Part shown: positions 15,223 to 58,058 of the stretch, piece after piece | Numbering within the stretch: position 1 is the stretch's first letter | Layout: each line of letters starts with the position of its first letter | Assembly (NCBI GenBank): GCA_964493715.1 | Contig: CAZBPC010000002.1 | Location: 32,001-96,000, forward strand | Length of the DNA stretch: 64,000 bases | Direction: 5' to 3' | DNA from: an uncultured archaeon | GTDB lineage: Archaea; Asgardarchaeota; Lokiarchaeia; Sigyniarchaeales; SOKP01 | Program-made: the position numbers and the translations under genes | The notes under the pieces: model-generated | The model's input: the letters and a program-made list of their open reading frames with translations, nothing else | What the model was told of the DNA's origin: nothing | Database searches by the model: none

Positions 15223-17604
15223 CTATATCATTAATTCAAACTTTTTCAAGTAAAAAAACTTAATCTGATCGTTCAACAAAAGACATGTTACAAATGTATA
15301 ACCTATTATAAATAAAATTGTTATTATAGGTATAGGAGTAATTCCTGGCAGCCCTATTGAAGAAAGTAATAATATAATAATGGAATTAATAATAATCACA
15401 ATAGCTAAAGGTTTACTCGGTTTTGAATTCCAAAAGTGCTTTCTTTCTCTAACGGTGAGTACCGTAAAATATCCTGAATACACCAAAAACACAAGTACAA
15501 ATGTATGTAAGGCATTTACATTTCCCAGTATTCCAAACATTAAATCCCCAATAAAGACTAGAAATATCCCCTCAATAACCATTAGAACGCCTAAAATCGC
15601 TCCTATTTTTACCATTCCGTTAACATTCCAAGTTTCTGGTTTTTTAGAATAACGAACATTATCGGTAGAAAGAGATAAAGTGACATAATCACTTAAAAAC
15701 AAAAGAATGATAATATCTAAAGCAGAAACAATATAAATTCCAAAGATAACAAAAGCAAGAATTATAAATAGTACTCGTTTAAATGTTCTAATCATTTTAT
15801 TTATTATCCAGGTTGCAATCCTTTGATAAATCATTCTTCCTATTATTATTAAATCAATGATACCCTCTAACCCCTCAGTAGTAAGCACCGCACTTGAAGA
15901 TTTCTTTGCAACATCTGTAGCATTACTAACAGCTATTCCAACCTCTGATTGCTTTAGCGCAGGAGCGTCATTGACGCCATCTCCGGTCATACCAACGATA
16001 TGATTATAATTTTGTAAATCTTTTACAATTAAATATTTATCTTCAGGATAAATTTCAGCAAATCCTATGGCATTTTCAATAATATCGTTTTTATCTTTAT
16101 CTGTTAAACTTTTCTTTAATTCTGTTATTCTGATTACATTTTTACCTAAATCAAGCTCCGATGCAATCTCTTGTGCTATAGGTAAAGCATCTCCCGTTAA
16201 AATTTTTACAGAAATACCTAAATCATTAAGTTTCTTGATTAATTGGGAGGCATTTTCTCGAATTTTATCATATAGCATTACATATCCTACCAATCGTAAA
16301 TCTTGCTTTTGAATCCCATATGCAACAGCAAGAAATCTATATCCTTTTGCTATGTAAGAATTAATTTCTTGAGTTATATTATCAAGTTCAATAAAATCAT
16401 TTTGAACTAAATCTTGAATTTCCTTTACAGCACCTTTAAAAACGTAGAATTCAGCATTATTTTTTTTAATGAAAGCTTCTGTTTTTCTTGTTGATGGATC
16501 AAAAGGGATGAAATATTTTTGCTCACAGTCATTAATTTTTATGTTTTTATATTTTGTCATCGATATAAAAGCATAATCAATGGGATCTTGGTTTGCTTCT
16601 TGAGATGCCAAGGCTCCATAGAAGAGAACATCATTTTCTTCAAATCCAGGACGTGGTAAAATCTTTACAATAGAAAGTTTATTAATAGTGAGAGTTCCGG
16701 TCTTATCCACACAAACAATATCCATAGTTGAAGCATCTTCAGTTGCATCCAACCTTGTTATTAATACACCTTTTTTAGATAATTCCAAAGATCCTAAAGC
16801 CATACTTAATGTAAACATAGTAGGCAATGCAACGGGAATAGAAGCAACTAAAAGTATTGCAATTAAAGGGAGAATCTGGAACACAAATTCAATTCCTTTT
16901 AACAATGATATGCTTATTGCTATAAATATTGATATAAATACAATTGCAAGAAGCCACTTAACTACTTTTGATATAATTTCTTGAATATGGAGTTTAGGTT
17001 TAGCAATTTGAACAAGTTCAATAGTGCGTCCAAAAAAAGTTTTCGTTCCAGTTTTAGTAATGAATCCTGTAATTTCTCCACGTTTTACAATGGAGCCTGA
17101 ATACAACTCATCACCTTTTTTTTTCTTAATAGCCATGAATTCTCCCGTTAATGTAGATTGATCTATTTCCAAATTGCCCTCTAATATATTTAAATCGGCC
17201 GGAACGAAATCCCCGCCTCTTAATCTTACAATATCGCCCGGAACTAACTCTCTTGCAGGAATTAATGTCCAAACTCCATCCCGTTTAGTCCGTGCTTTAA
17301 TACTAAGCTTTTCCTTAAGAAGATCCACTGCGCTATTAGCTTTCTCTTCTTGATAATAACCGATTATAGCATTAAACAGGAGAAGCCCCATAATTATATA
17401 ACCTTCAATATATTTACCTAATAGGAATTCTAATATAATCGTAAATTCTAACATCCATGGAGTAATACCCCAGAATTTTTTTAAAAATTTTTGAAGTAAG
17501 TTTACTTTTTTTTCAGGAACCTCATTATAACCATATATATTTAATCTGGTCTTAATTTCCACTAAATCTAATCCCTTTTCTAAATCATTAGAAATTAAAT
17601 TCAA
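15223..17604 (-). CDS. P-type (IIIA) plasma-membrane proton-efflux ATPase
   Basis: DKTGTLT, IPVALP, FDPSTRKTEA and MTGDGVNDAPALK motifs. Confidence 0.92.
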   Translation of the reverse strand: MNLISNDLEKGLDLVEIKTRLNIYGYNEVPEKKVNLLQKFLKKFWGITPWMLEFTIILEFLLGKYIEGYIIMGLLLFNAIIGYYQEEKANSAVDLLKEKLSIKARTKRDGVWTLIPARELVPGDIVRLRGGDFVPADLNILEGNLEIDQSTLTGEFMAIKKKKGDELYSGSIVKRGEITGFITKTGTKTFFGRTIELVQIAKPKLHIQEIISKVVKWLLAIVFISIFIAISISLLKGIEFVFQILPLIAILLVASIPVALPTMFTLSMALGSLELSKKGVLITRLDATEDASTMDIVCVDKTGTLTINKLSIVKILPRPGFEENDVLFYGALASQEANQDPIDYAFISMTKYKNIKINDCEQKYFIPFDPSTRKTEAFIKKNNAEFYVFKGAVKEIQDLVQNDFIELDNITQEINSYIAKGYRFLAVAYGIQKQDLRLVGYVMLYDKIRENASQLIKKLNDLGISVKILTGDALPIAQEIASELDLGKNVIRITELKKSLTDKDKNDIIENAIGFAEIYPEDKYLIVKDLQNYNHIVGMTGDGVNDAPALKQSEVGIAVSNATDVAKKSSSAVLTTEGLEGIIDLIIIGRMIYQRIATWIINKMIRTFKRVLFIILAFVIFGIYIVSALDIIILLFLSDYVTLSLSTDNVRYSKKPETWNVNGMVKIGAILGVLMVIEGIFLVFIGDLMFGILGNVNALHTFVLVFLVYSGYFTVLTVRERKHFWNSKPSKPLAIVIIINSIIILLLSSIGLPGITPIPIITILFIIGYTFVTCLLLNDQIKFFYLKKFELMI

Positions 17605-47306: not shown

Positions 47307-48245
47307 TTAGGTAGAATTTTCTTGGCATTTTATTTCATTGGCGATTTTTACCCATTGAAGATCAAGTCTCTCTTGAAGTTCAATTAGAACTTTCTCTGAT
47401 ACTTTAGAAAATCTTTTTTGGCGGGACAAATAATCTATTAATGGCGCTCTTTTTGAAGGATCTAATAATGGTTTACTCTTTTTTGATAAGCTCATAACCC
47501 CATTTTCAATTTCATATAAAATCCAAGATCCTGTCTTAACTGCAAGACGAGGAATTTCTATAGAATCTTCAGAGGGTATTCCCCATCCTGGGGGACAAGA
47601 TGCTAACACATGGATATATTTACATCCTTCAATAGATTTCGCTTTCTTAAATTTCTCGAAAAGATCTAAAGGTTCACTGACAGAACAAGTAGCAACATAG
47701 GGAATTTCATGTGCTGCCATTATTTGCGGAAGATTTTTTTTGTATTGTTCCTTTCCCAAAGTGGTAGTTGTTGTAATTGCACCATGGGGTGTACTTGATG
47801 AACGCTGAATTCCCGTGTTCATATATGCTTCATTATCATAACAACAATATATGATATTTGAATTTCTCTCAGCAGCACCACTTAATCCTTGAATTCCTAT
47901 ATCAGTTGTTCCTCCATCACCTGCAAAAACTAAAGTTGTCATTTTTTCCCACACTTTACCAGGAAACCTATAAGCTTTTGCTTTAAAGGCTGCAGAAACA
48001 CCCGTTGCTGCAGCAGCGCCTGCTGCAAATGCCATATTAATAAATGGGAAGTTTGGAGCTGCTTTAGGCCATAATCCTACAACTACATTTAAACAACTTG
48101 CAGGTGTGACTAAAGATGTATTTGGTCCAAGAGCTTTCATTGCCCATCTTAAAGCAATTTCAAGTCCACAACCAGCACAAGTAGAGTTCCCTGGTAGAAA
48201 AAATTCCTCTTTATAGTTCTCTAAAGCTTCTTTTATTGAAACCAT
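47307..48245 (-). CDS. porB: Pyruvate/2-oxoacid:ferredoxin oxidoreductase beta subunit
   Basis: CAGCG, GDGGT.DIG and DNEAYMNTGIQRS motifs. Confidence 0.9.
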   Translation of the reverse strand: MVSIKEALENYKEEFFLPGNSTCAGCGLEIALRWAMKALGPNTSLVTPASCLNVVVGLWPKAAPNFPFINMAFAAGAAAATGVSAAFKAKAYRFPGKVWEKMTTLVFAGDGGTTDIGIQGLSGAAERNSNIIYCCYDNEAYMNTGIQRSSSTPHGAITTTTTLGKEQYKKNLPQIMAAHEIPYVATCSVSEPLDLFEKFKKAKSIEGCKYIHVLASCPPGWGIPSEDSIEIPRLAVKTGSWILYEIENGVMSLSKKSKPLLDPSKRAPLIDYLSRQKRFSKVSEKVLIELQERLDLQWVKIANEIKCQENST

Positions 48246-48247
48246 TT

Positions 48248-49504
48248 TTATTCTACCTCCAATAAGCCATCCCAGAAAGTTCCATCAATCATCTCCCTTG
48301 GGAGTTCCCCAGTTTCATTCAACTTTATCAACATTTTAAGCTGGTTCTTTTGCTGTTCTAAGCTTACTTCTCTTCCTCCCAAACCCATAATGATTGGCAA
48401 AACTTGTGTAGAGACACCTGAATTATATAATGCCGATTTCACTTCACTACTTAAAGGTCCACCAGTAGGAGAACCAAATGCTGTAGCTCTATCCGCTACC
48501 CCAAGAACTTTGACTTTCCTCGCAATATTTATAACATCTTCTACAGGAAAAGGTCTAAAATAACGTAATTTAACACAACCCACTTTATATCCTTCTTCTC
48601 TTAAATCATCAACTGCTTGTTCCATTTGCATGGCTAATTCTCCATAATTTATTATTGCTACATCAGCATCATTCATTCTATACTCTTGAATCAATCCATT
48701 CCCGTACTGTCTTCCAAAAGTGGTTCCAAATTCGTCCGTAACTTCTTTTATTTTTTCTTTAGCTAATAGCATTGTATGGTGAATTTTCAATCTAAACTCA
48801 TTATAAAAACCAGAAGGCATTATTAAATTTCCATGCATCATTGGTCTTTCTGGATCAAGAAATATATGTGGCCAACCTCTTTCATCTGGAAGTGGTGGTA
48901 AAAATTTATCGACTGCGTCTTGATCTTCTATGGTTACTGGTTTAGATGTGTGAGATAGCGTAAATCCACCATATGCGACGAATTTTGGTAATAAAATATC
49001 GTAATCTTCACTGATCTTATAAGACATTAAAATATCATCATAAATTTCTTGATGATTTGCTGCAAATGAAATCATCCATCCAGTATCTCTGCAACTCATT
49101 ATATCTGTAAAATCTGCCCAAATATTCCAAGGTGGTGCTGGTCCTCGTGAAGCTATTGTTGTTACAATGGGTAAACGAGCACCTGCGGCCCAATGAACCA
49201 TCTCATACATATAAAATAATCCTTGTCCCGAAGTAGCTGTGAAAGTGCGAGTTCCTGCAGTACTTGCACCAATAATTGAAGCCATCACTGAGTGTTCTGA
49301 TTCTACTTTAATATATTCTGTTCCAGGCATCTCACCATTATCCACAAACTCGGATAGTTTTTCTACCACAGTAGTTTGTGGAGTAATTGGATAAGCACTT
49401 ATCACTTGAACACGCGCGGACTTTGCAGCGTATGCTGCTGCCACGTTCCCCTTTATTATTTTGGTTTCTCTTTCTTGCACAAAATCTTCTTGTGTTTCCA
49501 CCAT
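48248..49504 (-). CDS. porA: Pyruvate/2-oxoacid:ferredoxin oxidoreductase alpha subunit
   Basis: AYPITPQT, VESEHS and TATSGQGL motifs. Confidence 0.92.
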   Translation of the reverse strand: MVETQEDFVQERETKIIKGNVAAAYAAKSARVQVISAYPITPQTTVVEKLSEFVDNGEMPGTEYIKVESEHSVMASIIGASTAGTRTFTATSGQGLFYMYEMVHWAAGARLPIVTTIASRGPAPPWNIWADFTDIMSCRDTGWMISFAANHQEIYDDILMSYKISEDYDILLPKFVAYGGFTLSHTSKPVTIEDQDAVDKFLPPLPDERGWPHIFLDPERPMMHGNLIMPSGFYNEFRLKIHHTMLLAKEKIKEVTDEFGTTFGRQYGNGLIQEYRMNDADVAIINYGELAMQMEQAVDDLREEGYKVGCVKLRYFRPFPVEDVINIARKVKVLGVADRATAFGSPTGGPLSSEVKSALYNSGVSTQVLPIIMGLGGREVSLEQQKNQLKMLIKLNETGELPREMIDGTFWDGLLEVE

Positions 49505-49505
49505 A

Positions 49506-49844
49506 TTAATCTTCACTCTCCCTTACCATTTCTATACTTTTAGTTGGGCATTCTTTAGCACATATTCCACATCCCTTACAATATACATAATCGACTTCAA
49601 ATTCTCCTTCTTCATTTCTGATTATAGTAGCTTCGGGGCAATACATCCAGCAAATCCCACATTTTGTACAAGTATCTCTATTAACGACTGGTTTAAACGT
49701 TCTCCAATCTCCTGTCGTACCTATACTGCCTTTAATAGGAAATGATATAGGAATTGGAGGTAATTCTTTCCAGTTATGATATTCTTGTACTTCTGGTCTT
49801 TTATCTTTATCTTCACATATATTTTTCCATTTCACTTTGATCAT
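49506..49844 (-). CDS. porD: Pyruvate/2-oxoacid:ferredoxin oxidoreductase delta subunit
   Basis: TGDWRT.KP and two CxxCxxCxxxCP motifs. Confidence 0.92.
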   Translation of the reverse strand: MIKVKWKNICEDKDKRPEVQEYHNWKELPPIPISFPIKGSIGTTGDWRTFKPVVNRDTCTKCGICWMYCPEATIIRNEEGEFEVDYVYCKGCGICAKECPTKSIEMVRESED

Positions 49845-50419
49845 TCATACTCAACCTCCTTAACACTATTGTATGCTTCAATAGCAACATCCATATTTTT
49901 CTTGCCTCGACTCTCTCCAAATTCTTTATATATAACTTTTTTCATTGTATCGATGTCATAATAACCCGTCATTTTACCAAATGCTCCTAACATGGGAATA
50001 TTTAGTATGGGTCCACTGGAATGCATGAAATTTTGTTTAATACATATACCAGTAGCATCTACTATGAAATATTTGACATTTTCAGGAAAATCACAGGTAT
50101 CAATTGGATTTTTGCTGTTAATAAGTAAAGTAACTCCACTTTTTATAGTGGCCATAATAGCAGGAATATCTAATAATGATGTATCAAAAATTATCATATA
50201 ATCGGGAGTTTTCACGCTATCAAAGGTCTTTATTTGTTTATTCCTCGATAACTTAGAAAATGCTTGAATGGGGGCCCCTCTCCGTTCTGCACCTATTATA
50301 GGGATTGCTATAGCGTCTTTAAATCCTTTTTCATAGGCAAGTTGTGCTAATAATTGGCTCGCGGTAATTGCTGTTTGCCCACCGCGACCATGGAAAGTTA
50401 CCTCTACAATTTTTTCCAT
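49841..50419 (-). CDS. porG: Pyruvate/2-oxoacid:ferredoxin oxidoreductase gamma subunit
   Basis: HGRGGQ, GAERRGAP and NIPMLGA motifs. Confidence 0.92.
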   Translation of the reverse strand: MEKIVEVTFHGRGGQTAITASQLLAQLAYEKGFKDAIAIPIIGAERRGAPIQAFSKLSRNKQIKTFDSVKTPDYMIIFDTSLLDIPAIMATIKSGVTLLINSKNPIDTCDFPENVKYFIVDATGICIKQNFMHSSGPILNIPMLGAFGKMTGYYDIDTMKKVIYKEFGESRGKKNMDVAIEAYNSVKEVEYE

Positions 50420-50638
50420 ATTCGTATCATTCCTCATATTAATCAACACATTTAGAAGAAAAATAATTAACATTCCATTAAAAATTTCTGGAAAAGAATC
50501 ATAAGTATACGTTTTAATAAGAATAAATCATTTGAAATATCTTAGTTGACAATAAATAGTAAATCTCTTCATATTTTAAAGAATTATACATGAGATACAA
50601 TAGAAAAAATCAAGAAATAAACGTTAAAATGTGAGCCA

Positions 50639-51214
50639 ATGTCTGAAAAAGCCAAAGAAATGGAAGAAGAATTTTCATTCAAATGTCCTATTTGTAATAG
50701 TGGAACGATCGAAATAACTAAAACAGTTTATGATATGACTGACGGAGACAAGATGCTAATTGTTAAATTTGAATGCAATAAATGCACGTTTATAAAAAAT
50801 GACGTGGTTCCATTAACAACTAGAATTGAACCCGGAATTATATCATTACAGGTGATGAATGAAAATGATCTCAAATCTAAAGTTTATCGTTCACCAGTTG
50901 GCATATTAGAGATTCCTGAATTAGAAGTGTCAGTGGAACCGGGTCCACGTGCAGACTTTTATTATACAAATATAGAAGGAATCTTGGAGCGATTTCAGAA
51001 AGCAGTGCAAATTTATCGAAATGATCTTGATGAAAATGAAGAAAAACAAGCAGAAATCGATGAAATATTAAATAATATTGATAAAGCTATGAAGGGTGAT
51101 TTTAATTTCACCTTAAAGATAACTGATACGGGTGGAGGTAGCTATATAATTCCTCAAGATGAATCAAAATATTCCTTTCAAAAAATAGATCTTCCTTTAA
51201 CCATGGATGAGTAA
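50639..51214 (+). CDS. ZPR1-type zinc finger protein
   Basis: CPIC..CNKC, LEIPEL, VEPGP, TNIEGILER and D.GG.SYI motifs. Confidence 0.9.
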   Translation: MSEKAKEMEEEFSFKCPICNSGTIEITKTVYDMTDGDKMLIVKFECNKCTFIKNDVVPLTTRIEPGIISLQVMNENDLKSKVYRSPVGILEIPELEVSVEPGPRADFYYTNIEGILERFQKAVQIYRNDLDENEEKQAEIDEILNNIDKAMKGDFNFTLKITDTGGGSYIIPQDESKYSFQKIDLPLTMDE

Positions 51215-51394
51215 AAAAGGAACATCATAATTTATTTGAATAGTTAATACTACTATGAGCTTTATTTTTCTTAAAAAATAAATTGAGATTTATAAAGATA
51301 TAAAGATAAAAAATATTGAATAAATTTAATTTAAAATTAAGATGGTGAATTAACAGAGAAGATTTGAAGGAAATAAAAAAAATAGGAATAGATC

Positions 51395-52609
51395 ATTATA
51401 ACAGATAAAAGTGAATTTAATTGTTCAGATCCTAATCGATCCAAAAGACAAGAAATTAATCCCGGGTTATGTTATTTTGAATATCCTTTAAATAAATCTA
51501 GAAAGGATTTTCTTGACAAAGATGTTAATTTTTTAGAGATAATAGAATCAAAACATTATAATAGATGTTTAACTGACAATATTCAGACTTATCTAAAAAG
51601 TCTTGAGGGTGAAATCAGAATTTTATTCGAACCTTTCATAGAATTTAAGAATATGGGTGCACTTTTTGGGCTTCATAATAATTACATGCCAAATAATAGG
51701 ATGTATAAAAATTGTAAAAAAATTATAGCTAAAAGTACTTTAGATGAAATGCGAGTTAATTTCAAAAAAAATATTGAAAATTACACAAAGAAATTTCCAC
51801 ATTTGGTAGAGTTATTATTATTGTTTCATTCTGAAATTTTGAAATTTATTAATGAATATGAGATAATTCTTCAACCAAAACCTACTCCAGATTATCAAAT
51901 GTTCAATCACCATCCTAATCTTAAAAGAGATTATTTTGAAATAATTGATACATATGAAAAAGCGTACTGGCTTGGATTTCTATTTGCTGATGGATGGATA
52001 GCAATAGAACATAAAAAATCTGGAGATTATTATCGAATGGGGCTCCAATTATCATATAAAGACAAGGATGTGCTTCAGAGGTTTTGTAAAAGTATTGGAT
52101 TAAATCCTAAATATATAAAAAATCGTCTTGTTGGAAGTGATTTTAGCACAAAATTATATCATATAGGTGAAATTAGATGGGGAGATCAAAAAATAGCTCA
52201 AGATCTTGTAAAATTAGGGATAATATATGGATACAGTGAACAAAAAGGAAGGCGCGTTAAAACCCCTAGACTTCCAATACTACAGAACCGAAAACTGATG
52301 TTGGCATTTTTATCAGGTTTCTATGATGGTGATGGCACTCTTGGATTTGATAAGAAGACAGGCAAAATTCGTCCAAGAATTGCCTCTTCTGAAATAGACT
52401 TTTTACATCAAATAAAGCAATATTTCGGAATAAAGTATCAAATTTCTACAACAGAAATGGTTAAATTTAATATAAGAACAGAGAAAATGGTTAATATAAT
52501 AGGTAGTAGACTAGATGTTGATAAAGAAATATTTAAAGAAATGTTAAGTATATTTAAGAATAGTCTTGAAAGAAAGAGAGTTCCAATAGATTTCTTTAAT
52601 GAAAAATAG
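51395..52609 (+). CDS. Free-standing double-motif LAGLIDADG homing endonuclease-like protein (first ATG 51653; frame open from 51392)
   Basis: AYWLGFLFADGWI and AFLSGFYDGDGTL motifs; no intein or host gene around it. Confidence 0.82.
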   Translation: MITDKSEFNCSDPNRSKRQEINPGLCYFEYPLNKSRKDFLDKDVNFLEIIESKHYNRCLTDNIQTYLKSLEGEIRILFEPFIEFKNMGALFGLHNNYMPNNRMYKNCKKIIAKSTLDEMRVNFKKNIENYTKKFPHLVELLLLFHSEILKFINEYEIILQPKPTPDYQMFNHHPNLKRDYFEIIDTYEKAYWLGFLFADGWIAIEHKKSGDYYRMGLQLSYKDKDVLQRFCKSIGLNPKYIKNRLVGSDFSTKLYHIGEIRWGDQKIAQDLVKLGIIYGYSEQKGRRVKTPRLPILQNRKLMLAFLSGFYDGDGTLGFDKKTGKIRPRIASSEIDFLHQIKQYFGIKYQISTTEMVKFNIRTEKMVNIIGSRLDVDKEIFKEMLSIFKNSLERKRVPIDFFNEK

Positions 52610-52693
52610 CAAGTTTTTTTTATAGATTGCTTTCTTATTAAAATTGTAAGTATTTAGGAGAAAAATTTGAATAGAATTAAAAAGGTAGATTTA

Positions 52694-53880
52694 ATGGCTA
52701 AAAATGTAAAGCGAATAGGAATTTTAACGGGTGGTGGAGTTTCATTTAAGATACATCTTTTTGAACCACAGACTGTCCCGGATTAAATTCAGTGATTTAT
52801 GGGATAATGCTGAAAGCTTACGATGCGGATGTAGAATGCGTAGGAATTCTAAAAGGATGGAAAGGTTTTGTTGAAAATTTAACGATTCCCTTAAACATTG
52901 CAGAACATGACGATCTTCATACCAAGGGAGGGACAATATTGTATACAAGTCGTACTAATCCATTTAAAGGAGTTGAGGCTAAAGAGGAAAAAGCAAAGCA
53001 ATTAACTAATCAATTCAATGTGTTAGGTATAGATGCATTAATTGCTATCGGTGGAGATGATACTCTTGGAGTAGCAGATACCATGTATAAAATTGCTAAT
53101 GCAAATGTAGTAGGGGTTCCAAAAACGATAGATAATGACTTGAAGGGTACTCATTACACTTTTGGGTTCTGGAGCGCTGTACAATTAGCTTCTAATGCGA
53201 TGGATAATCTCACAACAACCGCACGTTCACACCAGCGTGTTTTTGTAGTTGAGATTATGGGAAGAGATGCTGGTTTTTTAACCATGTATAGTGGAATTTC
53301 AGCAGGAGCTGATATAATATTGGTTCCTGAAACCCCCTTTAGTTTAGAAAAAGATATTGTTGACGTACTCAAAAAAAGAGCTAATGCTGGGTATAAATAT
53401 CACATCATTGCCACATCTGAAGGAGCTCATCCTCATATCGATTCATTAAATCGAGATTTCAAGACAATTTCAAAGGAAACAATTGATAAATTACCTAAAG
53501 ATACATTTGGGAATCCTTTATTAGCAAAGTTAAACATTTCACAAATTATCGTTGATGAATTAAATTTAAGAGACGATCTAAAAGAAGTATTTCTCCAAAA
53601 TGACGTCGAATTCGAATGCAGGAGCGTAGTTTTGGGACATACAATGCGAGCTGGAACACCTAATTCGTTCGATAGAATTTTGGGATTGAGATTTGGATTA
53701 GCAGCCATGAATATGGTTTTAGAGTCTAAATTTGGGAACATGGTTTCGCTTCAAGGTAATAAAATTAAAACCATGCCGCTTTCGGAAGGGGTAAAAAAGA
53801 AATATATTACCTCAGATAGTGATAAAATGGAATTAAGAGATTTACTTGTAAAAGTGCGGTATCTATCGAAACAAAAATAG
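52694..53880 (+). CDS. pfkA: 6-phosphofructokinase (GGDD/PKTIDND, likely PPi-dependent) split by a 32-nt BHB intron (exon 1 52694-52739, exon 2 52772-53880)
   Basis: Spliced sequence reads MAKNVKRIGILTGGG-DCPGLNSVI; GGTIL.TSR, GGDDT, PKTIDND and EIMGR motifs; 384 aa after splicing. Confidence 0.93.
52740..52771 (+). other. Putative BHB (tRNA-type) intron in pfk mRNA, 32 nt
   Basis: Central helix GUGG/CCAC, bulges AGU and AGA, intron stem UUCA/UGAA, exon pairing CGGG/CCCG; frameshifts the gene unless removed. Confidence 0.88.
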
Positions 53881-53902
53881 AATTTTACGTCATTTTTTAT
53901 AT

Positions 53903-53971
53903 TTATCCGAACTGCTTTTCTTCTTCCACATCGCTATCAAGAGTATTTTTCTCTAAATATCTGTCAAGCCC
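53903..53971 (-). pseudogene. Remnant 3' end of an acyl-CoA dehydrogenase homolog
   Basis: Translates GLDRYLEKNTLDSDVEEEKQFG*, compared with [22 protein letters not shown] at the end of 55345-56589. Confidence 0.65.
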
Positions 53972-53996
53972 ATTTTACGTTAGAATACCACTTCCA

Positions 53997-54067
53997 GAAG
54001 GGGTAAAAAAGAAATATATTACCTCGGATAGTGATAAAATGGAATTAAAAGATTTGCTGGTAAAAGT
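53997..54067 (+). repeat. Diverged second copy of the pfk 3' end (direct repeat of 53785-53855)
   Basis: 71-nt match with 4 substitutions, 3 of them synonymous in the pfk frame. Confidence 0.9.
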
Positions 54068-54086
54068 TAGAGATTCATCTAAAAAA

Positions 54087-55307
54087 TTAAAATATTAAAT
54101 CCTTAGGCCTAACATCAGGAGCTTTAAGAAGAATTAACCCTGATATAACCGTTATACAAGCTGCTACTGCAAAAGGAGTCCATCCTATTATTTCTATTAG
54201 TGATCCTCCTCTCATTATTGTAATACTTGATAAATCTACAATATATCCCATAAATATCGGACCAAACACAAAACCTATATCTCCAATCGTACGATACACG
54301 CCCATATAAATTTCAAGTTTATCCTGAGGCGCAATATCAGTCACATAAGCAGCTATTGGCCCTGAAAGCCCAATCAAAGCTCCATAAATAAACATAACAA
54401 AAGAAATGTAAATCAGATTTGAAGTAAAAGGAATCCAAAGGGTTACTGGTGCAGAAACGACAAGTGATAATAAAAGAGGAGTTCGTCGCCCAATTTTGTC
54501 TGAAATCAAGCCAATAGGTAACATGGTAATTGTAGTTGCAATAGCCGCTATGGTTAATAATATACCAATATCAAATTCATTTAAACCAAGGTTATTACCC
54601 GAAAAAAGTGGTACAAGAGTGTTTCGCACTCCCGTCCGTATAAAGAATAACGAAAAAATTGAGGGAAGAACTGGAATGAATGATGGATCTCTTAAACTGA
54701 ACCTTACTTGATGATAGAGATCTTGAATCTTAATAGGTTCCTTTTCATTCGAATTATTCACTCTTGGCAACGTAAGAGTGGGAACGATCCCTATAGCAGA
54801 TATAATAGCATAAGCAAAAAATGGAGCGTTTATACCATATAAATCTGCAATAAAACCACCAAAACTTGGCCCAAAAATGGATCCCAATAATAAAAAACCA
54901 GAATAAATGCTCATTAAAAAACCTCGTCTTTCTGGGCTAGCAACTAATGCAATAAAAATGGTTGCAATTGTTACATAAATTGCAGAACCAAAACCTTCAA
55001 TAAATCGAGCTAAAAGTAAAATCCAATAATATTGAGCTGATCCCGCCAAAATTGAGGATCCCGATATGAGTATTAATCCCAAAAGCATCAAATTCTTTTT
55101 ATTATATCTTTGAGATAAGAAACCAGCTGGTAAATCAATGAACATGCGAGCAATTCCAAATGCAGACACCACAAGTCCAATAAGCGTATAATTAACATTA
55201 AAAGATTCGGCATAAAAAGGTAAAATTGGAGCAATTATGCTTAATCCCAATAATACGAGAAAGGTGACAACCGCAAGGTTTAATGTGATTATAAGGTCTC
55301 TTTTTAT
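54087..55307 (-). CDS. MFS transporter; probable ATA start
   Basis: About 12 TM segments, ISDKIGRR motif; the first TM helix extends upstream of TTG 55250. Confidence 0.85.
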   Translation of the reverse strand: MKRDLIITLNLAVVTFLVLLGLSIIAPILPFYAESFNVNYTLIGLVVSAFGIARMFIDLPAGFLSQRYNKKNLMLLGLILISGSSILAGSAQYYWILLLARFIEGFGSAIYVTIATIFIALVASPERRGFLMSIYSGFLLLGSIFGPSFGGFIADLYGINAPFFAYAIISAIGIVPTLTLPRVNNSNEKEPIKIQDLYHQVRFSLRDPSFIPVLPSIFSLFFIRTGVRNTLVPLFSGNNLGLNEFDIGILLTIAAIATTITMLPIGLISDKIGRRTPLLLSLVVSAPVTLWIPFTSNLIYISFVMFIYGALIGLSGPIAAYVTDIAPQDKLEIYMGVYRTIGDIGFVFGPIFMGYIVDLSSITIMRGGSLIEIIGWTPFAVAACITVISGLILLKAPDVRPKDLIF

Positions 55308-55344
55308 ATCACATCTCCCCTTGTTATGATTTTAGCATAACTAA

Positions 55345-56589
55345 TTAACCAAAATGTTTTTCTTCTTGATGATCTGAATCAATTGCGTCTTTCTCAACAT
55401 CACGATCAACCCATTTTTCGCTTAGTAATTCTTTATAGTATTCATGTTGTATTATCATGTTCATGATCTCTGTGGTTCCCGTCCACAATTCACCTATCCT
55501 TGAATCGCGTAAAATTTTTTCGATGGGATAGACTGTGGTATAACCAATACCCCCCATGATCTGCATCGCATTGTTTATGACTTTCCAACAAGATTTAGTT
55601 GAAAATTTTTTCGATTCTGAGACTAACCTTCTTTGTAAAGCAGGTGGTGCTCCTGCATCAATCGTTCTAGCAGTATTAAGAACAATTGCTCTTGCAGCGT
55701 CTAAAAGTGTAATACTATCTGCAACTTTAAAATTTATTGCTTGGAAGTTTTTTATTGTTTGTCCAAAAGCTTTTCTTTTAGTTGAATATTTGGTAGCAAT
55801 ATGAAGACAAGTTCTTGCTGATCCTAATGAACCCGCTGCCGTTGTGAGACGTTCAGGAACCATCATTTGATAAAAAATTCTTCCTCCTTGTCCTTCTCCC
55901 ATAATGATATTCTCTTTCGGTACTTGAACATTTGTAAATTTGAGTCTTCCAGCACCCCCACCTCTAGTTCCTAATAAACCATAAATGTACTCCGTTTCTA
56001 CACCTTCGCTACGATCCACGATAAATAGACTAAGAGATGATCGAGAATCCGATTTCGGATCCAAGTTAGTTTTAGCATAAACTAAAAAAAAGTCAGCTCC
56101 CTCAGCTCCCACAACAAAACGTTTTTCCCCATTCAGGATATAATAATCCCCTTCTTTAACAGCGGTGCAAGTTGCTCCAAAAAAATCAGATCCTCCTCTT
56201 GGTTCTGTTAGAGCTTCTGCAGTATACTTTTTACCCTCACACATTGGCTTCAAGTAATTTAATTTTTGACCTTCAGAGCCAAATAAATTCATGGCTTCTC
56301 CAGTAATAATAGGAAGAGAATATAAGCATGGTAATGAGCTCCCAAGTACGCCTACTTCTTCAAGAGCAACAACTTCACATTCCCAATTTAAGCCTCGACC
56401 ACCAAATTCCTTGGGAAACCTTAATCCTATAAGATTTTTTTTGCCAAGATTCTGCAGGAATTCAGTTGGATAATTGATTTCTTCTTTATCCATTTTTTTA
56501 ATTAAGGTGTGAGGAACATCGTCTCTTACAAATGAACGTACTTCTTCTTTTATTTTTTTAGCATCTTCACTTATTATATAATCAAACAT
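55345..56589 (-). CDS. Acyl-CoA dehydrogenase
   Basis: [29 protein letters not shown] and QIMGGIGY motifs. Confidence 0.94.
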
Positions 56590-56811: not shown

Positions 56812-58058
56812 ATGTTTACAAAAATAAAAAAAAATTATAAGAAATACCCAAATCCATTTAAAGTTCTGATTCTCGCCACATTCATCGATAGATTTGGAGG
56901 TTTTTTATTATTTCCCTTTTTTTCAGTGTCTCTTATAGAACATTTTAAAGTAACAATAATTGAGGTAGGATTTTTATTTTCTATATTTGCTGGTGGAAGC
57001 ATAATTGGTAGTACGATAGGAGGAGCATTAACTGATAAATATGGCCGTCGTTCGATGCTGTTATTAGGTTTAATTTCAAGTGGAATTGGTAGTATCTTAA
57101 TGGGTATAGTTAACGATTTATATCTTTTTTTATACTAGCAGCAGTTTTAGGCACATTAGGAGACTTGGGAGGTCCAGCCCGGCAAGCAATGGTTGTGGAT
57201 TTACTTCCAGAAGATAGACGAGCAGATGGATTTGGATTATTACGAGTGGCTGTAAATCTCGCAGCAGTAATGGGACCAATTCTTGGTGGAATGTTGCTAA
57301 ATAGTTCATATCTGTTCTTATTTATATTAGACGCAGTATGTCGCTTAATTACTGCCTTAATTGTATTCATAGTCATTCCAGAAACAAAACCTGAAAAACC
57401 AGAAGGCAAACTGGAAGAATCTGTAATGAAAACTATAGCTGGATATGAGGAGGTCCTTAAAGATGGATTGTATATATCATTTCTTTCCATTTCTGCTTTG
57501 ACGGTACTAGTTTACATGCAAATGAGCAGTACGTTATCGGTATTTTTGTGGGACGTGTACGAGTTTCCATTAAGCTTGTTTGGTGTGTTGTTGAGTATGA
57601 ATGCGCTGATGGTGGTATTCTTTCAGTTCTTGATAACTAGAATGACCGCAAAGTATGCACCCATGAAAATGATGGCTTTCGGCACACTTCTTTATATGAT
57701 TGGTTTTGGGATGTATGGTTTTGTCTCCTTACCATACTTGTTTTTCGTGGCTATGGCAATTCTAACAGTTGGAGAAATGATTGTAATACCCGTATCACAA
57801 GCTACAGTAGCTCATTTTGCTTCTGAAGATAAACGAGGGCGATATATGGCAGTGTTTGGTTTTCACTGGTCGATTCCAACCTTATTTGGAGTCTCAGCTG
57901 CTAGTTTTGTCTATATTTCGCTTGGTCCGAATTGGGTATGATATTTAGCTGGAATTTTATGCCTGATTGCTATCATCGGTTTTTTAATACTCAATGGTAT
58001 CGCAAAAGATCGTTTTTCGAATCCGACAGAAATTTTGGTTGAAAAATTTAGTGAATAA
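56812..58058 (+). pseudogene. MFS transporter pseudogene (frameshift in a T run at about 57125-57131, premature TGA at 57939-57941)
   Basis: LTDKYGRR half and second half lie in different frames; frame continues past the TGA as YLAGILCLIAIIGFLIL..* to 58058. Confidence 0.8.

What the first reader, a model, noticed from the sequence alone, without database searches (positions are those of the whole stretch)
51392..52771. Free-standing LAGLIDADG endonuclease directly upstream of the intron-containing pfk: possible collaborative homing
Seen: a two-motif LAGLIDADG ORF ends 84 nt before the pfk start and about 130 nt from the intron site, on the same strand and not inside any intron or intein. Established: archaeal rRNA BHB introns often encode LAGLIDADG nucleases, and in phages free-standing nucleases can partner with ORF-less introns that disrupt their target. 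Inference: this nuclease cuts intronless pfk at the GGGD codons, the mini-intron confers immunity, and both spread together.
Basis: inference. Interest (0 to 1): 0.75.

Follow-up and report, generated by a model that had tools for sequence, protein, structure and literature searches.

The report
Homing nuclease paired with pfk mini-intron
In an Asgard archaeon, a gene for a predicted DNA-cutting enzyme sits just upstream of a glycolysis gene (pfk) that is split by a 32-base insert shaped like a tRNA-type intron; in the relatives examined the enzyme gene stands there only when the insert is present, so it likely cuts insert-free copies and helps such tiny introns spread.

Summary
Observation confirmed. 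A two-motif LAGLIDADG gene (stop 52609) ends 84 nt before pfk and 130 nt before a 32-nt insert (52740-52771). Removing the insert at strict bulge-helix-bulge (BHB) cut sites restores GGG^D; across 23 alleles 160 of 161 pair cells hold, 14 by double changes. Homologs are named Promethearchaeota. Near-identical relatives lack both nuclease and intron; 51250-52769 is a swapped-in block. In dereplicated pfk loci, the nuclease or a remnant lies upstream of 6 of 19 intron alleles and 0 of 66 intronless ones. Related nucleases form clades beside other BHB-split genes (EF-1a, eIF2g, mannosidase, argG and others), but 46 of 61 family loci showed no such neighbour. Best reading: collaborative homing by a free-standing nuclease and a host-spliced mRNA mini-intron (about 0.62). 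Cleavage, immunity and splicing are untested. The scan noted the same cassette type before on other DNA (carB, metK, porA, aldolase, kae1). My paper searches found no description of it.

The parts
51250..52769 (+). Swapped-in block (nuclease gene, new pfk upstream region, pfk exon 1, intron), absent or replaced in near-identical relatives
   Evidence: blastn against L062/L063: 94% over 47847-51249, resumes at 52770
51398..52609 (+). Free-standing two-motif LAGLIDADG endonuclease gene with an N-terminal helical domain; probable ATA start at 51398 (open frame from 51392, first ATG 51653)
   Evidence: AlphaFold mean pLDDT 84; Foldseek top hits are LAGLIDADG homing endonucleases/maturases; dN/dS 0.21-0.27
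51968..51994 (+). LAGLIDADG motif 1 (WLGFLFADG; catalytic-position D200 at 51989-51991)
   Evidence: invariant in alignment A1
52310..52336 (+). LAGLIDADG motif 2 (LSGFYDGDG; catalytic-position D314 at 52331-52333)
   Evidence: invariant in alignment A1
52694..52739 (+). pfk exon 1 (15 codons plus one base, ending in TGGG); foreign relative to the sister allele
   Evidence: 24 of the last 40 nt identical to L062/L063, up to 35 of 40 to intron-bearing alleles of distant hosts
52740..52771 (+). 32-nt ORF-less BHB mini-intron (central helix 52734-37 with 52766-69; bulges 52738-40 and 52770-72)
52772..53880 (+). pfk exon 2 (PfkA-type phosphofructokinase; single full copy in the genome)
52772..52991 (+). 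Probable co-conversion tract in exon 2 (more diverged from the sister allele than the rest of the gene)
   Evidence: 27 of 220 mismatches vs 38 of 880 against L063, Fisher p 4e-5; no such step against L064
50639..51214 (+). ZPR1 zinc-finger gene, left flank; directly adjacent to pfk in empty alleles
   Evidence: 62 of 66 intronless loci

Best explanation
A free-standing LAGLIDADG gene sits 130 nt upstream of a 32-nt BHB insert in pfk; the insert is likely a host-spliced mRNA intron, and the nuclease likely cuts intronless pfk at or next to the GGG^D codons while the intron would protect its own allele, so that repair likely copies the intron, and sometimes the whole cassette, into the cut copy (collaborative homing). 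Shown: the anatomy, the covarying BHB, the block replacement relative to a sister genome, the one-way co-occurrence, purifying selection on the nuclease, and two tRNA-splicing-endonuclease genes in the genome. Inferred: splicing by EndA plus a ligase; DNA cleavage and its site; immunity through the intron. Also inferred: long repair tracts (crossover near the end of zpr1) bring in nuclease, new upstream region, exon 1 and intron, as here; short tracts (crossover inside exon 1) bring in the intron alone; the nuclease later decays (frameshifted, remnant or deleted) while the intron, which can be lost only precisely, stays.
For: (1) BHB: 160 of 161 cells paired, 14 double changes, 0 of 500 shuffles as high, slid partners 22-51% paired; two EndA genes in G000. 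(2) Sisters L062/L063 (pfk protein 96% identical) and L064 have neither part, and the own locus nests among them with 100/100 support. (3) Nuclease or coding remnant upstream of 6 of 19 intron alleles and 0 of 66 intronless ones, own locus and two nuclease-ascertained loci left out. None of 7 alleles with only the second pfk insert has it. (4) All 4 nucleases at least 55% identical in 152 genomes of the order lie directly upstream of intron-bearing pfk; the next two (52%, 49%) lie directly upstream of argG and of an oxoacid-oxidoreductase gamma-type gene, each with its own BHB insert. (5) Family members beside other BHB-split genes: 11 of 228 ORFs near nucleases vs at most 2 of 634 background ORFs by the same method. 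They form clades by neighbour; the EF-1a and eIF2g clades, whose inserts sit in the homologous P-loop (HxDHG^K), are sisters. (6) Nuclease dN/dS 0.21-0.27; synonymous difference to L142 is 0.40 vs 0.76 for the flanking zpr1, which points to horizontal movement. (7) Decay series: frameshifted (L024), remnants (L025, L081, L105), cassette-type upstream region only (L011, L075, L087, L092, L097, L103). (8) Exon 1 plus intron is 96-98% identical between hosts whose distal pfk is 76-80% identical.
Against: The intron is usually without the nuclease: 13 of 19, 23 of 29, and 7 of the 13 show no trace of the cassette upstream. Phylogenetically independent pairs number only 4 on supported branches: never opposite, but median p 0.25. 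46 of 61 other family loci show no adjacent intron-split protein gene; one (L154) sits beside an intronless fwdA. Exon 1 was replaced together with the intron, so immunity could come from its recoding. The nucleases closest to this one (L142, L143) go with the other intron sequence type, so nuclease and intron reassort. The raised divergence of the first 220 nt of exon 2 is seen against L062/L063 but not L064. The gene has no ATG near its probable start. One intronless locus (L136) has a 57-nt nuclease-like DNA fragment upstream.
Confidence: 0.62

Rival explanations
1. Intronless homing with a passenger intron: the nuclease cuts elsewhere in the pfk head or the zpr1-pfk spacer, protection comes from the replaced, recoded exon 1 or upstream region, and the intron only hitchhikes by co-conversion.
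For: The whole head of pfk is replaced. Other family members sit beside intact genes, some with duplicated stumps of the neighbour (L040, L147; L337), and L154 sits beside an intronless fwdA with a Gly-to-Ser change at the site where its sister's neighbour has an intron. Free-standing phage enzymes can cut far from their own gene (PMC2988022, passages).
Against: No nuclease-bearing pfk locus lacks the intron. Alleles with a native spacer switch to cassette-type sequence only about 20 nt before the intron (L004, L028 vs L006, L018), which centres the conversion on the intron site. Sister nuclease clades go with inserts at homologous P-loop codons.
Confidence: 0.22
2. No causal link: the zpr1-pfk spacer is a hotspot for foreign DNA, and nuclease and intron are two independent arrivals that move together only through ordinary recombination.
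For: Several intron alleles carry unrelated genes in the spacer (L075/L077, L081, L103, L104). G000 has other candidate mRNA introns (dnaG, aldolase) with no family nuclease beside them.
Against: 0 of 66 intronless alleles carry the nuclease. The foreign cargo also sits almost only in intron alleles, and often with cassette-type upstream sequence or nuclease remnants. Enrichment of split genes beside nucleases is about 16-fold.
Confidence: 0.08
3. The protein is a domesticated LAGLIDADG protein (splicing helper or WhiA-like regulator of pfk), not a mobile nuclease.
For: The top Foldseek hits include maturases (bI3, I-AniI); one homolog is labelled WhiA by its source; purifying selection.
Against: The intron persists without it in most alleles; the gene is patchy, often decayed and horizontally moved; both catalytic Asp are kept. 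BHB introns are cut by EndA (PMC7714728, passages).
Confidence: 0.04
4. The 32-nt insert is not spliced: pfk is broken here or read by frameshifting, and the nuclease is incidental.
For: No transcript evidence was obtained; folding energy of the region is unremarkable.
Against: Inserts of 30-32 nt at the same site in 29 of 133 genomes, with compensatory changes; pfk is single-copy here; BHB cut sites restore the frame exactly.
Confidence: 0.04

Closest known systems
Collaborative homing: free-standing F-CphI beside the ORF-less group I intron of psbA in cyanophage S-PM2 (PMC6083498, PMC3984707, PMC10448857; passages seen)
   Same: Free-standing nuclease gene next to a conserved gene that carries an ORF-less intron in a conserved motif; intron proposed to block self-cleavage.
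   Different: Here a LAGLIDADG enzyme (F-CphI is Endo VII-like), a 32-nt protein-spliced BHB intron rather than a self-splicing ribozyme, an archaeal chromosome rather than a phage; cleavage not shown.
Pyrobaculum oguniense 16S rRNA introns Pog.S1213 / Pog.S1205 (as described in PMC4496867, passage; original paper not read)
   Same: An archaeal homing endonuclease cuts at the intronless site of a neighbouring short ORF-less hairpin intron and co-converts it.
   Different: That nuclease is encoded inside a second intron eight bases away, in an rRNA gene; here it is free-standing, 130 nt away, and the host is a protein gene.
BHB intron of crenarchaeal cbf5 pre-mRNA (PMC2738675, passages; PMC7714728, passages)
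   Same: Short (16-44 nt) BHB intron at a conserved spot of an archaeal mRNA, patchily distributed.
   Different: Different gene and phylum; the passages seen name no partner nuclease for cbf5 and suggest the intron may be a deletion derivative of a nuclease-coding intron.
Monomeric LAGLIDADG homing endonucleases (I-AniI, bI3, I-OnuI, I-SceI, I-DmoI)
   Same: Two motifs in one chain, helix-strand-strand-helix-strand-strand domains, catalytic Asp in both motifs.
   Different: Only 10-18% identity, TM-score 0.25-0.35 over the query; an extra N-terminal helical domain of about 130 residues; not inside an intron or intein.

Membership tests
Monomeric LAGLIDADG homing endonuclease | Two LAGLIDADG motifs with the catalytic acidic residue | tested here: met
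   D200 and D314 invariant in 22 sequences; Pfam over cut-off
Monomeric LAGLIDADG homing endonuclease | LAGLIDADG fold | tested here: met
   Model pLDDT 84; 136 PDB chains at E<=0.001, the listed top hits all LAGLIDADG enzymes
Monomeric LAGLIDADG homing endonuclease | Site-specific double-strand cleavage of the empty allele | not testable with these tools
   needs an assay
Monomeric LAGLIDADG homing endonuclease | Optional, horizontally moving gene between conserved genes | tested here: met
   Absent in sister alleles; 6 changes on an 87-row tree; pS 0.40 vs 0.76 for zpr1
Archaeal BHB intron | 4-bp central helix between two 3-nt bulges, flanking helices, cuts after the second bulge base | tested here: met
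Archaeal BHB intron | Removal restores the host product | tested here: met
   384-aa PfkA frame with TGGGDCPG; same as intronless alleles
Archaeal BHB intron | Splicing endonuclease present | tested here: met
   two PF01974 genes in G000
Archaeal BHB intron | Spliced RNA observed | not testable with these tools
   no RNA run was listed to lay on the locus
Collaborative homing system | Nuclease gene outside the intron, adjacent to the host gene; intron has no ORF | tested here: met
   none of 110 scored alleles has a long intron at this site
Collaborative homing system | Nuclease not found beside the unprotected allele | tested here: met
   0 of 66; a 57-nt fragment in L136 is the only trace
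Collaborative homing system | Intron and nuclease inherited together | tested here: inconclusive
   One block in this genome, but the intron is alone in 13 of 19 and 23 of 29; 4 independent pairs, p 0.25
Collaborative homing system | [quoted passage not shown] | not testable with these tools
   indirect only: clade-to-site correspondence
Collaborative homing system (phage type) | Intron is a self-splicing group I ribozyme | tested here: not met
   32 nt; no Rfam match at E<=1 in 51150-54200

The most novel reading that the evidence does not exclude
Promethearchaeota carry a radiation of free-standing LAGLIDADG nucleases, each clade aimed at a conserved motif of a different housekeeping gene (pfk, EF-1a, eIF2g, EF-2, argG, aldolase, fwdA, mannosidase, a small GTPase, perhaps tRNAs), and this is a general engine that seeds and spreads host-spliced mini-introns in mRNAs of the closest prokaryotic relatives of eukaryotes, leaving orphan introns behind once the nuclease decays.
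Probability: 0.45. Interest if true: 0.88.

Novelty: new variant of a known kind. Interest (0 to 1): 0.72.

Why it matters
In the papers read, confirmed archaeal mRNA introns are limited to cbf5 and one 5' UTR (PMC7714728, PMC2738675), and a recent census of Asgard tRNA introns found no general route of arrival ('how they arrive remains open', 10.64898/2026.10.13.758758, abstract and passages; the word 'homing' does not occur in its main text). This locus offers a concrete route that one cleavage assay can test, with a natural empty allele in hand (L062/L063). It also means that conserved Asgard genes (pfk in 29 of 133 genomes of this family, also EF-1a, eIF2g, EF-2) are split by short inserts that gene callers will truncate, which matters for phylogenomics and metabolic reconstruction. 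The nuclease clades would be a set of new meganucleases with predictable targets.

Tried and rejected
Folding energy against shuffles was uninformative. A first BHB scan without homology check gave mostly false candidates and was replaced by a homology-checked scan, whose hits I curated by eye; it misses introns that the reference also carries. L094's 897-aa protein downstream of an intronless pfk looked like a counter-example but has no LAGLIDADG domain. The second, 30-nt insert in some pfk alleles (IGG^DD) was considered as the partner and rejected: absent here and in L142, never with the nuclease when alone (0 of 7), and no strict BHB found in 6 alleles tried. A possible stump of the old pfk start before the nuclease (about 51339-51390) is only weakly similar to the sister allele and is not claimed. 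Viral contigs gave only distant relatives (at most 37% over the core, best 80 shown), so no viral carrier was found. No intron at this site in 16 pfk copies scored from other families of the order (2 of 18 regions gave no pattern match). The sigma-70 promoter scan was at chance level and does not cover archaeal promoters. One dN/dS row (distal pfk, own vs L142) had wrong offsets and was discarded. The search of 50%-identity representatives never returned. Ten paper searches found no report of pfk introns or of free-standing nuclease plus mRNA mini-intron pairs in archaea; subscription journals are largely missing, no supplements were read, and PMC2738675 cites earlier predictions of introns in other archaeal protein genes that I did not see.

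Full report
OBSERVATION. The window is C2:32001-96000 of a 3.68-Mb genome. Named homologs of the nuclease come mostly from Promethearchaeota, so the host is most likely an Asgard archaeon of that group. The frame 51392-52609 is open for 405 codons; its first ATG is at 51653. Homology runs upstream of that ATG, and the 83% identical P0001 starts MTDKSEF, matching the ATA at 51398; ATA/ATT also appear to start pfk in several related alleles. Both LAGLIDADG motifs keep the catalytic-position Asp (D200, D314; invariant in 22 sequences). The AlphaFold model (pLDDT 84) matches monomeric LAGLIDADG homing endonucleases and maturases at 10-18% identity. It is the only member of its family found in this genome.

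THE INTRON. pfk is single-copy and breaks after TGGG. Three placements of a 32-nt deletion restore TGGGDCPG; 52740-52771 is the one given by strict BHB cuts (central helix GUGG/CCAC, bulges at 52738-40 and 52770-72). An insert of 30-32 nt at the same site is found in 8 of the 30 best pfk loci of the genus and in 29 of 133 genomes of the family, in 5 of 13 genera; none was found in 16 pfk copies scored from other families. Over 23 distinct alleles the seven BHB pairs hold in 160 of 161 cells, with 14 double changes, including a synonymous Gly codon change in the exon matched in the intron; slid partners pair at 22-51%. Relatedness inflates such counts, and the structure was drawn from these sequences. 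The genome has two tRNA-splicing-endonuclease genes. Splicing itself is inferred.

THE SISTER ALLELE. Contigs L062/L063 are 94% identical over window 47847-51249 and again from 52770, and L063 is 97% identical over 54027-56370, but they have neither nuclease nor intron: zpr1 abuts pfk. So 51250-52769 (nuclease, new upstream region, exon 1, intron) replaces about 100 nt of the empty allele. Exon 1 matches the sister at 24 of 40 nt but distant intron-bearing alleles at up to 35 of 40. The first 220 nt of exon 2 differ at 27 sites against 38 in the next 880 (p 4e-5), as a co-conversion tract would; against the more distant empty allele L064 no such step is seen, and the donor of the tract is not in my sample. 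On a tree of distal pfk (87 rows; L143 too short, left out) the own locus nests with L062 and L064 at 100/100, so a recent gain is the simplest reading; the tree is not rooted.

CO-OCCURRENCE. 112 pfk loci were examined (30, 80, 2 found through the nuclease); 2 end before the site. Dereplicated at 97% and leaving out the own locus and the two nuclease-ascertained ones, the nuclease or a coding remnant lies upstream of 6 of 19 intron alleles and 0 of 66 intronless ones (Fisher p 6e-5, kin not independent); in 62 of the 66, zpr1 ends within 130 nt. Independent contrasts give only 4 supported pairs, never opposite, median p 0.25. Of the 13 intron alleles without nuclease, 6 keep an upstream region of the type found in nuclease loci and 7 have a native spacer. 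In some of the latter, exon 1 turns cassette-like only about 20 nt before the intron. In the GTDB family, 6 of 29 intron alleles have the nuclease or a remnant. The intron needs 15 changes on the tree (shuffled mean 19), and exon 1 plus intron is 96-98% identical between hosts whose distal pfk is 76-80% identical. The nuclease is under purifying selection (dN/dS 0.21-0.27) and closer to its homolog in L142 than the flanking zpr1 is (pS 0.40 vs 0.76). Against my reading: the intron is mostly alone; the own intron type goes with more distant nucleases (L100, G129) while the closest nucleases go with the other type; intronless L136 has a 57-nt nuclease-like fragment upstream.

THE WIDER FAMILY. 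Of 13 non-self matches at E<=1e-40 in 152 genomes of the order, the four at 55-81% identity lie directly upstream of intron-bearing pfk, the 52% one upstream of an argG-like gene with a strict 30-nt BHB insert (gene name from its motif, recalled), the 49% one upstream of an oxoacid-oxidoreductase gamma-like gene with a 29-nt insert, two identical copies lie about 2 kb from an insert, and five showed none. Among more distant members, a homology-checked scan found plausible BHB inserts in 11 of 228 ORFs near nucleases against at most 2 of 634 ORFs in 800 kb of background (hand-curated; p 2e-5). With all references, 15 of 61 distinct loci have an adjacent split protein gene: mannosidase 4, small GTPase 2, EF-1a 2, eIF2g 2, aldolase 2, EF-2, fwdA, pfk (the GTPase, eIF2g and EF-2 names rest on recalled motifs). 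About 13 lie by tRNA genes and the rest show nothing that I could detect. In a FastTree tree the nucleases group by neighbour (mannosidase 99, EF-1a 100, eIF2g 100, GTPase 99), and the EF-1a and eIF2g clades, whose inserts fall at the same P-loop codon, are sisters (98). L154, sister of the fwdA-linked nuclease, sits by an intronless fwdA with WAWS for WAWG at the intron site: either a counter-example or protection by substitution; one case.

MECHANISM. Most likely collaborative homing (0.62). Inferred steps: the nuclease cuts intronless pfk at or next to GGG^D; the intron interrupts the site in the donor; EndA splicing keeps pfk functional; repair copies a long tract (whole cassette) or a short one (intron only); the nuclease decays once targets run out while the intron stays. 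Main rival (0.22): the enzyme cuts elsewhere in the head of pfk, the recoded exon 1 protects, and the intron rides along.

KNOWN SYSTEMS. It would work like F-CphI with the psbA group I intron (PMC6083498, PMC3984707, PMC10448857, PMC2988022; passages) but fails the group I criterion. The nearest archaeal case is the intron-encoded Pog.S1213 enzyme that co-converts an ORF-less hairpin intron in 16S rRNA (PMC4496867, passage). The nearest mRNA intron is that of cbf5 (PMC2738675, PMC7714728; passages). The Asgard tRNA-intron census leaves the route of arrival open (10.64898/2026.10.13.758758; abstract and passages). Also opened, passages only, without bearing: PMC12397907, PMC6125680, PMC3082918. 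Ten searches found no report of this arrangement in archaea; supplements were not read. Earlier notes of this scan describe the same cassette type at carB, metK, porA, aldolase, kae1 and a ribosomal protein gene in other genomes; they are unchecked AI notes and are not counted as evidence.

VERDICT. Real feature; new variant of a known kind; interest 0.72. The comparative case is strong and one-directional; the biochemical steps are open and cheap to test.

Noticed in passing
window 53985-54086: 84% identical second copy of the last 102 nt of pfk, 212 nt downstream; a shorter stump is also in L063, behind an intervening region, and L064 has an RNA methyltransferase gene there. Looks like an older 3'-end replacement event.
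   Followed up: partly
L016, L018, L024, L025, L027-L030 and others, pfk codons IGG^DD: A second, 30-nt insert with in-frame stops in pfk of many relatives (8 of 30 genus loci), absent here; no strict BHB found in 6 alleles tried.
   Followed up: partly
G000 C17:13937-13974; C65:15793-15822 and about 15891-15922: Further candidate mRNA mini-introns in this genome: a DnaG-like primase gene and two in an aldolase gene, with no family nuclease beside them.
   Followed up: partly
L075, L087, L092, L097, L100, L103-L105 (pfk starts): Cassette-type pfk alleles seem to start at ATA or ATT behind a clear AGGTGA element, as the nuclease here may.
   Followed up: no
L036, L039, L042, L047, L048, L050, L051, L053, L149, L175, L176: Several clades of the same nuclease family lie directly beside tRNA genes (Ser, Val, Leu, Phe, Thr), some with introns.
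   Followed up: no
L040:917-1051, L147:5176-5313, L164:5205-5369, L337:2703-2915: Family nucleases flanked by a duplicated head or tail stump of the neighbouring gene, as from head or tail replacement.
   Followed up: no
L075/L077, L081, L103, L104, L143 (zpr1-pfk interval): Intron-bearing alleles often carry unrelated cargo genes upstream, including a Panacea-like antitoxin module in L104.
   Followed up: partly
L327, L330, L146, L165, L166, L178: Some family members sit in very long frames (950-1350 aa) with unrelated N-terminal parts, a zinc-ribbon type shared with non-nuclease proteins (L092, L094).
   Followed up: no
window 56812-57941: An MFS-type transporter reading frame appears split into two ORFs (108 and 258 aa) near 57138-57165; frameshift or another insert not examined.
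   Followed up: no
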